Source: the human T2T-CHM13v2.0 reference genome, Homo sapiens. From it: 64,000 nucleotides of DNA. The position numbers and the translations under genes were made by a program. The DNA lies in the NCBI GenBank assembly GCA_009914755.4, contig CP068257.2, positions 6,240,001 through 6,304,000 of the forward strand, given 5' to 3'. Positions 10,839 to 13,664 of the stretch are shown here, piece by piece. Position 1 is the stretch's first letter; every line of letters begins with the position of its first letter. The notes under the pieces are model-generated. The model searched no databases, had not been told where the DNA came from, and was given only the letters and a program-made list of their open reading frames with translations.

Positions 10839-11218
10839 CAGCCTGCAGAATACTTACATCTCCTGGATGATCAGTTCAGAAATATGTCACAATGACCCCT
10901 CCCTGCGGAGCCCAGAGAAGATTTGCATCATTTGGGTGATCAGTGCAGAGATATTTCACAATGTCACCTGCAAAAAAAGCCTGGAAATGATTTATGTCAC
11001 CTCGGTGATCAGTGCATAGGTATGTCAGAAATCCCCAGTAGGCTGAACCTAGACAAGGGTTACATCACTTAGGTGAACAGTGTAGAGATATGTGAAAATT
11101 CCCGTGTAGACAGAGCCTAGACAAGAGTTACATCACCTAGTGATCAGTGCAGGGATAAGTCGTAAAGTCTCCTGTAGGCAGAGGGTAGAAAAGTGTTTCC
11201 TCCTTGGGGTGATCAGTG
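10839..11218 (+). repeat. Beta-satellite (+ polarity), the downstream flank of unit B cut short by an inversion junction
   Basis: Matches the first 365 bp of the flank that follows unit A. Ends at ...ggtgatcagtgc|ctactggagacattgtgacatatct, where the monomer polarity flips. Confidence 0.85.
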
Positions 11219-13664
11219 CCTACTGGAGACATTGTGACATATCTGCGCACTGATCACCCAGGTGATGTCACTTTTGTCAAGGATATGGCTACAGGGGCAC
11301 TGTGACATTTCACTGCACTGATCACACACCTGATGTAACACTTGTCTAGGCTCTGGCTACAGGGGGCTTGTGACACATCTCTGCACTGATCCCCCAGGTG
11401 ATGTAATCCTTGTCTAGGCTCTGCAAAAAGGGGTCATTGTGACATAACTCAGCACTGATCTCCCAGGTGATGGGACAGTTGTTTAGGCTCTGCCTACAGG
11501 GGCATTATGACATATCTCTGCAGTGATGTAACTCTTGTCTATATCTGCCTACTGGTGGCATTGTGGCATATTTCTGCAATGATCACCCAGGTGATGGACT
11601 CTTGTCTTGGATCTGCCTATGGGGTCACAGTGACATATCTCTGCACTGATGATCACCCGGGTTATATAACTGTTGTCTAGGCCTGCCTATGGGGACATTG
11701 TGAGTTATCTCTGCACTGATCACGCAGGAGATGTGACTCTTTTTTTTTTTTTTTGAGACGGAGTCTCGCTCTGTCGCCCAGGCTGGAGTGCAGTGGCGGG
11801 ATCTCGGCTCACTGCAAGCTCCGCCTCCCGGGTTCACGCCATTCTCCTGCCTCAGCCTCCCAAGTAGCTGGGACTACAGGCGCCCGCCACTACGCCCGGC
11901 TAATTTTTTTGTATTTTTAGTAGAGACGGGGTTTCACCGTTTTAGCCGGGATGGTCTCGATCTCTTGACCTCGTGATCCGCCCGCCTTGGCCTCCCAAGA
12001 GATGTGACTCTTGTCTAAGCTCTGCCAAGAGGGACACTGGGACATATCTCTGCACTGATCGCTGAGGTGAGGTAAAACTTGTCTAGGCTTTGCCTACAGT
12101 GGGATTTATGACACATCTCTGCACTGATCACCCACGTGATGTAACTCTTGTCTAGTATCTGCTTACAGGGGATATTGTGAGATATCTCTGCACTGATCAC
12201 CCACATGATGTAACTCTTTTCTAGGCTCGGCCTACAGGGGCTTTGTGACATATCCCTGCACTGATCACCCAGATGATGTAACTCTTGTCTAGGCTCCACC
12301 TACAGAGGGTATTGTAACTTATCTCTGCACTGATCACCCAGGTGATGTAACATGTATCTAGGCTATGCCTACAGGGGCTTTTTGACATAGCTCTGCACAG
12401 ATCACCTAGGTTATGTAACTCTTTTCCACTCTCTGCCTACAGAGGGCATTGTGAAATATCTCTGCACTGATCACCCAGGTGATGGAAGTCTTGTCTAGGC
12501 TCTGTCTATGGGGGCATTCTGTTAAATATCTGCCCTGATCACCCAGGTGATGTAACTCTATTCTAGGCTCTGTCTACAGGGATTTTTGTGACATATCACT
12601 GCACTGATCACCTAGGTGATGTAAGCCTTGTATGAGCTTTGCCTATAGAGGCTTTGTGACATATCTATGCCCTGATCTCTGAGGTTATGCAACTCTTGTC
12701 TAGGCACTGCCTGCAGGGGACATTGGTACATATCTCTGCTCAGATCACCCATATTATGGACACTTGTCTTAGATCTGCCTACATGGACATTGTGACACAT
12801 CTCTGAACTGATCAACCAAGTGATGAAACTCTTGTCTAGGCTCTGCCTACAGGGGCTTTGTGACACTTCTCTGCACTGATCACCCTGGGGAGGGAACTCT
12901 TGCTACGCTCTGCCTATAGGAGGCTTTATGACTTATACCTGCACTGATAACCAAGGTGATATAACACTTGTCTAGGCTCTGCCTACAGTGGAATTCTCAC
13001 ATATCTCTGCACTGATCACCTGGGTGATGTAACTCCTGTCTAGGTTCAGCCTACAGGAACGTTTTGACATATCTCTGCACTGATCACCCAGGTGGTGTAA
13101 CCCTTGTCTAAGCTCTGCCTACAGGGGCATTGTGACAGATCTCTCCACTGCTCACTCAGGTGATGTAACAATTGTCTGGGCTTTGCCTACAGGGGGCTTT
13201 GTGATATACATTTCCACTGATCAAACAGGTGATGTAACCCTTGTCAAAGTTCTGCTTACAGGGGCTTTGTGACATATCTCTGCACTGATCACCCCAGGGA
13301 GGAAACACTTTTCTACACTCTGCCTATGGGAGGCTTTATGACTATTCCCTGCACTGATCACTAGGTGATGTAACAGCTGTCTAAGCTCTGTCTACAAGGA
13401 AAATTTCACATATCTCTAAACTGATCACGTAAGTGATGTAACCCTTGTCTAGGATCAGCCTACTGGGGATTTCTGACATACCTATGCACTGATCACCGAG
13501 GTGACGTAAATCATTTCCAGGCTTTTTGTACAGGGGACATTGTGATATATCTCTGTGCTGATCACCCAAATGATGCAAATCTTCTCTAGGCTCCGCAGGG
13601 AGGGGGCATTGTGACATATTTCTGAACTGATCATTCAGGAAATGTAACTATTCTCCAGGCTTTG
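11219..13664 (-). repeat. Beta-satellite array (- polarity), interrupted by an Alu at 11741-11998
   Basis: The monomers read as the reverse complement of the + arrays (...gcactgatcacccaggtgatgtaactcttgtctaggctctgcctacagggg...). Confidence 0.9.
11741..11998 (-). mobile_element. AluY-type SINE, 5'-truncated (starts near consensus position 37), with a 14-nt pure poly(A) tail and a perfect 13-bp TSD
   Basis: The + strand shows T14 followed by gagacggagtctcgctctgtcgcccaggctggagtgcagtggcg...ggcctcccaa. This is the reverse complement of the Alu right and left monomers. The target-site duplication gagatgtgactct occurs at 11728-11740 and again at 11999-12011. Confidence 0.9.

What the first reader, a model, noticed from the sequence alone, without database searches (positions are those of the whole stretch)
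11190..11250. Fold-back inversion junction inside beta-satellite (polarity switch + to -)
At 11218/11219 a + polarity monomer start (ggtgatcagtgc) is joined directly to the interior of a - polarity monomer (ctactggagacattgtgacatatctgcgcactgatcacc). The + and - source sequences share tgc at the breakpoint, so there is about 3 bp of microhomology. The left side lies 365 bp past the tail of + unit B. The right side corresponds to a position about 2.1 kb past the tail of a - unit (compare 19910 before unit D). The breakpoints are therefore asymmetric, as expected for fold-back or template-switch events rather than a clean palindrome.
Basis: seen in the sequence. Interest (0 to 1): 0.6.

Follow-up and report, generated by a model that had tools for sequence, protein, structure and literature searches.

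The report
Old strand-switch junction in beta satellite
The polarity flip at about 11,219 is real: two oppositely oriented beta-satellite/D4Z4-like repeat copies are joined tail to tail with only 3 shared bases, but it is an old example of a breakpoint type already counted by the hundred in these arrays, and it does not look like a fresh fold-back duplication.

Summary
Beta-satellite polarity is + from 1 to 11219, - from 11220 to 55338, and + again to 64000. Paralog alignments and Tandem Repeats Finder place the first switch (J1) at 11219/11220. TGC (11217-11219) can be assigned to either parent, and there are no inserted bases.

The fold-back reading has no positive support. The six complete D4Z4-like units, which carry broken DUX4 ORFs, form a perfect star: every pair is 86.0-87.2% identical. 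Arms B and C are no closer to each other than any other pair, and nothing in the window exceeds about 89% identity over 500 bp or more. A duplicative fold-back could only be as old as the original amplification.

J1 and a second 3-bp junction, J2 (55338/55339), bound a 44.1-kb inverted block. They are not the two ends of a clean balanced inversion. The best reading is an old non-homologous, microhomology-assisted join. It is not homologous recombination, not a hairpin and not a palindromic read artefact. Hundreds of such strand switches are already reported in beta-satellite arrays of chr1 and the acrocentric chromosomes.

I could not test whether independent assemblies carry this junction.

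The parts
8000..10853 (+). D4Z4-like unit B (the GC-rich core is 8201-10801). It carries a broken DUX4 ORF on the + strand and forms the body of the left arm.
   Evidence: GC profile. The block is 86% identical to units A and C-F. ORF 8635-9582 matches the Pfam Homeodomain family at 8.6e-11 and DUX4 chains in PDB at 7e-57.
10854..11219 (+). Beta-satellite-like tail flank of unit B: 5.4 monomers of 68 bp in + polarity, cut off at the junction.
   Evidence: Tandem Repeats Finder. It is 90-94.5% identical to the same flank of 7 other units. In those paralogs the flank stays 92-100% identical to the consensus for at least 600 bp further, so B's copy is truncated here.
11217..11219 (.). TGC, the 3-bp microhomology shared by both inferred parents. 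The breakpoint lies somewhere between 11216/11217 and 11219/11220.
   Evidence: Alignments A1 and A2. The two tandem-repeat arrays overlap here. 43 of 47 external copies have TGC before CTAC. Chance P(3 bp or more) = 0.053.
11207..11259 (.). Local hairpin created by the join: a 13-bp perfect stem (11207-11219 / 11247-11259) with a 27-nt loop. It is a by-product of the join, not evidence that one side was copied from the other.
   Evidence: DNA fold of -18.6 kcal/mol, z-score -4.0. The two exact 13-mers occur in 55 of 130 + monomer cores and 118 of 276 - monomer cores.
11220..11740 (-). Start of the - polarity beta satellite. It is paralogous to the position about 2.1 kb past the tail of other - units.
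   Evidence: BLAST matches 35631-36073 (89.6%), 19906-20430 (86.0%), 34196-34721 and 37741-38265. Tandem Repeats Finder.
11741..11998 (-). 5'-truncated AluY-like insertion with target-site duplications GAGATGTGACTCT at 11728-11740 and 11999-12011. It is a later insertion and not part of the junction. It lengthens the spacer from about 1.79 to 2.06 kb.
   Evidence: Sequence. It is the only Alu in the window and is absent from all paralogs.
12012..13282 (-). The rest of the single-copy 'spacer': the - polarity downstream flank of unit C.
   Evidence: 86-88% identical and collinear with the flanks of D, E, G, H+ and A.
13283..16514 (-). Tail flank (13283-13661) plus D4Z4-like unit C, the mirror counterpart of 8000-11218.
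   Evidence: 8000-11218 matches 16514-13283 at 86.5%. 10840-11218 matches 13661-13283 at 91.6%.
55336..55339 (.). J2, the other boundary of the 44.1-kb - block. A - unit cut at B-equivalent position about 9262 is joined head to head to a + unit starting at B-equivalent position about 10512. GGG (55336-55338) is shared and there is no filler.
   Evidence: BLAST and alignments to the six units on both sides. The overlapping parts of H- and H+ are 84.0% identical, no closer than other pairs.

Best explanation
J1 is a genuine, old strand-switch (inversion) breakpoint inside a beta-satellite/D4Z4-like ('LSAU-BSAT', beta-composite) array.

Two composite repeat copies that were already distinct were joined tail to tail by a non-homologous reaction that used at most 3 bp of microhomology (TGC) and added no bases. 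That reaction would be classical or microhomology-mediated end joining, or a replicative template switch. The join truncated B's conserved downstream flank at +365 bp and C's at about +2.1 kb.

J1 is the left boundary of a 44.1-kb inverted block (11220-55338). The right boundary, J2, has the same anatomy: 3 bp shared and no filler.

My preferred sub-scenario, at about 0.45, is a non-duplicative event. That means either a multi-break rearrangement that inverted the block and lost several kb at its edges, or a join between oppositely oriented arrays.

Shown here: the polarity switch, the breakpoint position, the lack of homology or filler, the truncation of both flanks, and the lack of any special kinship between the arms. 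Inferred: the repair pathway, the age, and whether J1 and J2 arose in one event.

The junction has no evident function. It is a structural scar.
For: - Polarity markers and the split between the two tandem-repeat arrays with a 3-bp overlap.
- Breakpoint fixed by 7 left and 5 right paralogs, with no orphan bases.
- Paralogous flanks continue at 92-100% identity to consensus for at least 600 bp past the point where B's stops.
- All unit pairs are 86.0-87.2% identical, with 117-138 private versus 2-11 shared changes.
- No segment pair in the window exceeds about 89% identity over 500 bp or more, so the arms are not recent copies.
- J2 has the same anatomy and its arms are also unrelated beyond background.
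- Repeat subtypes cut across orientation: upstream beta satellite groups {B,G,C} and the downstream flank groups {D,G,H+}.
- No inverted-repeat pair longer than 43 nt around the junction is more than 81% complementary, so it is not a palindromic chimera.
- A young AluY with target-site duplications sits in the spacer and is absent from all paralogs.
- Literature: over 200 inversion breakpoints in HSat3B5 and in the beta-satellite arrays of chr1 and the acrocentrics (10.1101/2021.07.12.452052). Hundreds of beta-satellite strand switches spread randomly along arrays (10.64898/2026.07.22.740206). LSAU composites near centromeres are 80-95% identical within an array (10.1101/2021.07.12.451456).
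Against: - No read-level or cross-assembly confirmation was possible. The junction 24-mer is absent from the metagenome, prokaryote-genome and viral collections. ORF and protein look-ups found no orthologous locus.
- The 3-bp microhomology is only borderline against chance (P = 0.053), and the parents are inferred from paralogs.
- J1 and J2 cannot be the ends of a clean balanced inversion. The reconstructed ancestral adjacencies (B+365 next to unit position about 9262, and C+2.1 kb next to unit position about 10512) are not contiguous, so kb-scale losses or separate events must be assumed.
- A duplicative origin at the time of the amplification burst cannot be excluded.
Confidence: 0.75

Rival explanations
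1. Fold-back or template-switch inverted duplication. A broken or stalled end at C+2.1 kb (or at B+365) primed on the complementary strand through TGC. This made the B-side arm an inverted copy of the C-side arm, or the reverse, with a 1.7-kb single-copy spacer, as in constitutional fold-back inverted duplications.
For: - The geometry fits: one inverted junction, a 1.74-1.79-kb spacer before the Alu inserted, 3 bp of microhomology and no filler.
- Hermetz 2014 (PMC3907307) reports spacers of 766-70,466 bp (median 3,428) and 2-8 bp of microhomology.
- The 5.6-kb B arm aligns best with the C arm among the full-length arms: 85.4% against 83.1-83.6%.
- A 2026 preprint regards beta-satellite strand switches as by-products of array expansion.
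Against: - The arms are not sister copies. B-C is 86.9%, inside the 86.0-87.2% range of all pairs, and there is no excess of shared derived sites.
- B's flank is closer to D and H+ than to C.
- B's upstream satellite is closer to G (85.8%) than to C (83.8%).
- Mirror symmetry fails beyond the first unit. The anti-diagonal that pairs A with D is offset by about 3.1 kb from the one that pairs B with C (anchor coordinates).
- The model is therefore only possible if the event coincided with the original amplification.
Confidence: 0.25
2. Assembly or read artefact: a false join of two oppositely oriented satellite stretches, or a hairpin (fold-back) chimeric read.
For: Satellite arrays are hard to assemble, and I could not inspect reads or other assemblies.
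Against: - A chimeric fold-back read gives a near-perfect palindrome. Here no inverted-repeat pair longer than 43 nt across the junction is more than 81% complementary, and the mirror partner of the left arm lies 2.06 kb away at 86.5% identity.
- Overlap-based misjoins need long near-identical repeats. Nothing within the window exceeds about 89% identity, and the parents share only 3 bp.
- A second junction of the same style lies 44 kb away.
- Such switches are reported by the hundred in validated assemblies.
Confidence: 0.05
3. Homology-driven origin: non-allelic homologous recombination between inverted monomers, for example at the palindromic TGATCA core, or a snap-back within one monomer.
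For: The monomer contains the palindrome TGATCA, and a 13-bp perfect stem flanks the join. Some polarity switches in unrelated contigs do sit at GGTGATCACC-like centres, for example L019 and L034.
Against: - The switch is not at TGATCA. The + side runs through GTGC, and the - side enters 27 nt before its own TGATCA.
- Each side is collinear with its own paralog family up to the 3-bp overlap, so there is no hybrid monomer and no extended homology.
- The 13-bp stem is expected by chance in about 43% of such joins.
Confidence: 0.02

Closest known systems
Strand-switch (inversion) breakpoints in beta-satellite and beta-composite (LSAU-BSAT) arrays of chr1 and the acrocentric short arms (Altemose et al., 10.1101/2021.07.12.452052; APG centromere preprint, 10.64898/2026.07.22.740206)
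   Same: 68-bp beta satellite interspersed with LSau/D4Z4-like units, abrupt polarity reversal inside the array, low identity within the array, and several switches per array. There are two in this 64-kb window.
   Different: The passages I searched in those papers (text look-ups) count and map switches but give no base-level anatomy there. Here the junction is resolved to a 3-bp window, with inferred parents, truncated flanks and tests of kinship between the arms. The chromosomal location of the window could not be established.
Constitutional fold-back inverted duplications with a disomic spacer (Hermetz et al. 2014, PMC3907307)
   Same: A single inverted junction, a kb-scale asymmetric spacer (1.7-2.1 kb against their median of 3.4 kb), and 2-8 bp of microhomology without filler.
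   Different: In those cases the arms are true copies, identical at formation, next to a terminal deletion. Here the arms are 13% diverged and no closer to each other than to any other repeat copy, and orientation flips back 44 kb later.
Divergent, 5'-truncated D4Z4-pLAM copies in LSAU-BSAT regions (Butterfield et al. 2023, PMC10620044), and the solitary inverted D4Z4 unit on 4q mentioned there
   Same: Units of about 3.1-3.2 kb with degenerate DUX4 ORFs embedded in beta satellite, uniformly diverged. That paper reports about 90% identity to 4q D4Z4; here the copies are 86-87% identical to each other. D4Z4 units are known to occur in inverted orientation.
   Different: On 4q the inverted unit lies apart from the array, next to the FRG2 gene rather than inside beta satellite. 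Here whole composite blocks, satellite and unit together, flip inside one array.
Inversions in divergent alpha satellite and the 1.7-Mb inversion in the chr1 active HOR array (Altemose et al.)
   Same: Polarity reversals within tandem satellite arrays, more frequent in old, non-homogenised layers.
   Different: A different satellite family and scale. Some of those are polymorphic and recent, whereas this one shows no sign of being recent.

Membership tests
Beta-satellite strand-switch breakpoint in a beta-composite (LSAU-BSAT) array | 68-bp beta-satellite monomers on both sides of the junction | tested here: met
   Tandem Repeats Finder gives period 68 at 10854-11219 and at 11217-11741, with reverse-complementary consensus sequences.
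Beta-satellite strand-switch breakpoint in a beta-composite (LSAU-BSAT) array | Abrupt reversal of monomer polarity | tested here: met
   Marker counts per kb and paralog alignments.
Beta-satellite strand-switch breakpoint in a beta-composite (LSAU-BSAT) array | Satellite interspersed with LSau/D4Z4-like units | tested here: met
   Eight GC-rich blocks. Homeodomain and DUX4 matches. Unit orientation flips together with the satellite.
Beta-satellite strand-switch breakpoint in a beta-composite (LSAU-BSAT) array | Location on chr1 pericentromere or an acrocentric short arm | not testable with these tools
   No primate genome collection is available. The metagenome contigs carrying the same repeat are at best 92-94% identical to the window.
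Fold-back inverted duplication (Hermetz 2014 type) | Single inverted junction with a kb-scale single-copy spacer | tested here: met
   The mirror point of 11218 is 13283. The spacer is 2063 bp, or about 1.79 kb without the Alu and one target-site duplication. The equivalent distance in D is 1736 bp.
Fold-back inverted duplication (Hermetz 2014 type) | Short inverted microhomology (2-8 bp) or an insertion at the junction | tested here: met
   TGC, 3 bp. The chance of 3 bp or more is 0.053, so the support is weak.
Fold-back inverted duplication (Hermetz 2014 type) | The two arms are copies of each other, that is, each other's closest relatives | tested here: not met
   B-C is 86.9%, within the 86.0-87.2% range of all pairs. 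Shared derived sites: 10 for B-C against 2-11 for other pairs. Flank and upstream satellite are closer to D, H+ and G. The test loses its power only if the event coincided with the star-like burst.
Fold-back inverted duplication (Hermetz 2014 type) | Mirror-image structure continuing along both arms | tested here: inconclusive
   The mirror holds for 5.6 kb (5639-11219 against 18883-13282, 85.4%). It then breaks: the anti-diagonal pairing A with D is offset by about 3.1 kb from the one pairing B with C. Later indels could explain this.
Balanced two-break inversion | Two junctions of opposite type bounding one inverted block | tested here: met
   J1 is + to - and tail to tail. J2 (55338/55339) is - to + and head to head. 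The block is 44.1 kb.
Balanced two-break inversion | Re-inverting the block restores contiguous sequence at both ends | tested here: not met
   Re-inversion would put B+365 next to unit position about 9262, and C+2.1 kb next to unit position about 10512. Neither adjacency is contiguous, so kb-scale losses are required.
NAHR between inverted repeats | Extended sequence homology or a hybrid repeat at the breakpoint | tested here: not met
   Only 3 bp are shared, and each side follows its own paralog family up to the breakpoint.
Hairpin or fold-back chimeric read artefact | Near-perfect palindrome centred on the junction | tested here: not met
   No inverted-repeat pair longer than 43 nt around the junction is more than 81% complementary. 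Only a 13-bp perfect stem is present.

The most novel reading that the evidence does not exclude
J1 (tail to tail) and J2 (head to head) are fossils of inverted-duplication steps, either fold-back/breakage-fusion-bridge or double template switching, that took place within the same burst that created all the D4Z4-like/beta-satellite composite copies. On this reading these arrays grew by inverted as well as tandem duplication, and the hundreds of strand switches in chr1 and acrocentric beta satellite record that growth mechanism rather than later inversions. The star-like phylogeny allows this. So does the 3-bp microhomology at both junctions (joint chance about 0.003 if the two are independent and J2 has the same null as J1). 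A 2.55-kb mirror pair centred within about 20 bp of J2 is also compatible with it.
Probability: 0.25. Interest if true: 0.45.

Novelty: new member of a known kind. Interest (0 to 1): 0.2.

Why it matters
On its own this junction matters little. Strand switches in beta-satellite arrays are already counted by the hundred in complete human assemblies.

Its value is as a worked example at base resolution. It shows that at least these two switches are blunt or 3-bp-microhomology joins between already diverged composite repeats, with truncated flanks and no homologous exchange. It also shows that orientation does not track repeat kinship.

If the same anatomy holds across the catalogued breakpoints, it would say whether acrocentric and chr1 beta-composite arrays were shaped by end joining and template switching rather than by homologous recombination. 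It would also give unique junction k-mers, here TGATCAGTGCCTACTGGAGACATT, that can serve as markers for tracing these arrays among haplotypes, among heterologous acrocentric chromosomes and among apes.

Tried and rejected
1. Independent evidence for the junction.
   - The exact 24-mer was not found in metagenome contigs, prokaryote genome contigs or viral contigs.
   - A positive control with the right-side 22-mer found 46 metagenome contigs carrying this satellite. None is orthologous (at most 94% identical), and all 47 copies have the normal - continuation. The absence is therefore uninformative.
2. Exact-protein look-ups of three short ORFs spanning J1 and two long ORFs in unit B found nothing on record.
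3. A protein homology search with the ORF nearest J1 gave a best full-length hit of 69% identity, so no allelic or orthologous locus was found.
4. Recent fold-back duplication was rejected by the identity matrix and the shared-site counts.
5. Snap-back within a monomer, or 'same monomer in hairpin symmetry', was rejected by collinearity with paralogs on both sides and by the 13-mer frequencies.
6. A clean balanced inversion using J1 and J2 was rejected by the reconstructed adjacencies.
7. Simple insertion of an inverted block into one + array was rejected. The + sequences either side are not contiguous: they overlap by about 700 bp of unit tail, and that overlap is only 88-89% identical.
8. 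J2 as a fold-back duplication was rejected. H- and H+ are 84.0% identical, no closer than other pairs.
9. I briefly proposed a deleted unit remnant at 59660-59907 mirroring unit G. Checking showed plain beta satellite there, so I withdrew the idea.
10. Molecular-clock dating. The 5-6% non-CpG divergence per copy would naively give tens of millions of years. Giussani 2012 states that a rhesus library screen detected no beta satellite and that gibbon and orangutan beta satellite does not show a clustered organization. I therefore give no absolute age.
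Full report
**What the window is.**
The 64-kb window is primate beta satellite. It consists of 68-bp Sau3A-type monomers interrupted by eight GC-rich blocks of about 2.6 kb or fragments of them.
- The blocks are D4Z4-like units. In unit B, ORF 8635-9582 carries a homeodomain (Pfam PF00046, 8.6e-11). It matches the N-terminal double-homeobox region of human DUX4 chains in PDB at 7e-57.
- No unit keeps an intact DUX4-length ORF; the longest is 315 aa.
- This is the 'beta-composite' or LSAU-BSAT architecture described for the acrocentric short arms and the chr1 pericentromere.
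- Unit orientation and satellite polarity always flip together.

**Checking the observation.**
- The marker GATCAGTGC occurs only in 1-11219 and 55336-64000. Its reverse complement occurs only between them.
- Tandem Repeats Finder independently splits the arrays at 10854-11219 (+) and 11217-11741 (-), overlapping by TGC.
- Seven paralogous unit flanks follow the window up to GGGGTGATCAGTGC and then continue AGAGATATGTCAC, whereas the window continues CTACTGGAGAC.
- Five paralogs follow the window from TGC|CTACTGGAGAC onward but differ upstream.
- The junction is therefore 11219/11220, with a 3-bp ambiguity (11217-11219) and no filler bases.
- TGC precedes CTAC in 4 of 5 window paralogs and in 43 of 47 copies in 46 unrelated metagenome contigs, so the microhomology inference is sound.
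- Its statistical weight is small. Simulated random +/- joins in this window give 3 bp or more in 5.3% of cases.
- The left breakpoint is 365 bp past the unit B tail.
This places it about 2.1 kb past a - unit tail.
- The junction 24-mer is unique in the window even with 3 mismatches allowed.

**Local anatomy.**
- The join creates a 13-bp perfect stem (11207-11219 / 11247-11259) with a 27-nt loop (-18.6 kcal/mol, z-score -4.0).
- Those exact 13-mers are carried by 42% of + monomers and 43% of - monomers. The stem is therefore an expected by-product, not evidence that one side was copied from the other.
- No inverted-repeat pair longer than 43 nt around the junction is more than 81% complementary.
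- The true mirror partner of the left arm (8000-11218) is 16514-13283, at 86.5% identity. It lies 2063 bp to the right.
- About 271 bp of that distance is a later insertion: a 5'-truncated AluY-like element (11741-11998) with 13-bp target-site duplications. It is the only Alu in the window and is absent from every paralog.
- In paralogs A, C, D, E, G and H+ the flank continues at 92-100% identity to consensus for at least 600 bp beyond the point where B's copy stops. J1 therefore truncates a conserved part of the composite repeat and is not a natural unit boundary.

**Is it a fold-back?**
A fold-back or template-switch duplication predicts that the arms are sister copies. They are not.
- The six complete units form a perfect star. 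All 15 pairwise identities are 86.0-87.2%, and B-C is 86.9%.
- Each unit has 117-138 private changes, against 2-11 changes shared by any pair; B and C share 10.
- B's 380-bp flank is closer to D (94.5%) and H+ (93.7%) than to C (91.6%).
- B's upstream satellite is closer to G (85.8%) than to C (83.8%).
- The downstream flank groups D, G and H+ together across orientations.
- Nothing in the window exceeds about 89% identity over 500 bp or more.

A duplicative event after the amplification burst is therefore excluded. One that coincided with the burst cannot be excluded. The geometry (spacer 1.7-2.1 kb, 3 bp of microhomology) does fall within the range reported for human fold-back inverted duplications: spacers of 766-70,466 bp and microhomology of 2-8 bp (PMC3907307).

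**The other end of the block.**
- Polarity returns to + at J2, 55338/55339. A - unit cut at B-equivalent position about 9262 is joined head to head to a + unit starting at about 10512. GGG is shared and there is no filler.
- The overlapping parts of the two J2 arms are 84.0% identical, no closer than other pairs.
- Re-inverting 11220-55338 does not restore contiguous sequence at either end. Removing the block does not do so either: the two + edges overlap by about 700 bp of unit tail that is only 88-89% identical.
- J1 and J2 are therefore not a clean balanced inversion and not a simple inverted insertion. Either several kb were lost in a multi-break event, or the two junctions arose separately.

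**Artefact?**
I could not inspect reads. However:
- A hairpin chimera would be a near-perfect palindrome, which this is not.
- An overlap-based misjoin needs long near-identical repeats, which the window lacks.
- Attempts to find the junction in independent data failed or were uninformative.

**Comparison with what is known.**
- A 2026 population-scale preprint reports hundreds of beta-satellite strand switches. They are distributed randomly along arrays, their number is proportional to array length, and the authors interpret them as by-products of array expansion.
- Hoyt et al. note 80-95% identity within LSAU composite arrays near centromeres.
- Butterfield et al. catalogue 319 5'-truncated D4Z4-pLAM copies of about 3.1 kb in LSAU-BSAT regions, uniformly about 90% identical to 4q D4Z4.

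The present junction is one more member of this known class. The passages I looked up in those papers count and map switches without giving base-level anatomy.

**Age.**
- Non-CpG divergence of each unit from the consensus is 5.0-6.3%.
- Giussani 2012 states that a rhesus library screen detected no beta satellite and that gibbon and orangutan beta satellite does not show a clustered organization.
- I therefore do not convert these figures into years. I say only that the copies, and any duplicative origin of J1, are much older than the Alu insertion.

**Verdict.**
This is a real but ordinary structure: an old tail-to-tail strand-switch scar made by non-homologous, microhomology-assisted joining in a decayed beta-satellite/D4Z4-like array. 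The fold-back label is a possibility that depends on timing and has not been demonstrated. Interest is low (0.2).

Noticed in passing
window 55336-55339: Second polarity switch (J2, - to +). It lies inside D4Z4-like sequence, not inside satellite. A - unit ending at B-equivalent position about 9262 is joined head to head to a + unit starting at about 10512. GGG is shared and there is no filler. The arms are 84.0% identical in their overlap.
   Followed up: yes
window 51126-53668 and 57047-59594: A 2.55-kb beta-satellite block and its reverse complement (86.7% identical, the highest value among pairs longer than 2.5 kb) are centred at about 55358-55360, within about 20 bp of J2. The inner 1.7 kb on the two sides are not mirror images. 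This block type has at least 5 copies at 85-87% identity, so the symmetry may be coincidence. It is unexplained.
   Followed up: partly
window 49878-51399 (junction 50464/50465): D4Z4-like unit G has a 1.89-kb internal deletion joining B-equivalent position 10627 to position 8733.
   Followed up: partly
window 11728-12011: A 5'-truncated AluY-like element in minus orientation (11741-11998) with a poly-A tract of about 15 nt and target-site duplications GAGATGTGACTCT. It is the only Alu in 64 kb and is absent from all paralogous flanks.
   Followed up: yes
window units A-F (2725-5952, 8000-11218, 13283-16514, 21642-24859, 28476-31702, 38931-42158): The six complete D4Z4-like units are equidistant (86.0-87.2% for all 15 pairs, with almost all changes private). 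This is a strikingly clean star, implying one amplification burst and no later homogenisation or gene conversion. CpG observed/expected has fallen from 0.62 in the consensus to 0.48-0.54 in the copies.
   Followed up: yes
window flanks just past each unit tail (e.g. 5952-6550, 21040-21642, 56039-56640): The beta-satellite-like flank downstream of the units is better conserved (92-100% to consensus per 100 bp for at least 600 bp) than the D4Z4-like body, which shows 5-6% non-CpG divergence. Repeat subtypes of the flanking satellite ({B,G,C} upstream, {D,G,H+} downstream) cut across orientation blocks.
   Followed up: partly
loci L001-L046 (metagenome contigs): Forty-six metagenome contigs carry beta-satellite/D4Z4-like composite DNA. 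I take this to be host contamination, but I did not check the samples. The best matches to the window are only 92-94% identical, which is still closer than any pair within the window. Eight contigs contain their own polarity switches at various monomer phases. These include near-palindromic GGTGATCACC-type centres (L019, L034) and one, L011, whose - side starts at the same TGCCTAC phase as J1. Some may be short-read assembly chimeras.
   Followed up: partly
window 54513-55394 (+): A 293-aa open reading frame runs straight across J2. It is almost certainly a chance ORF in GC-rich DNA.
   Followed up: no
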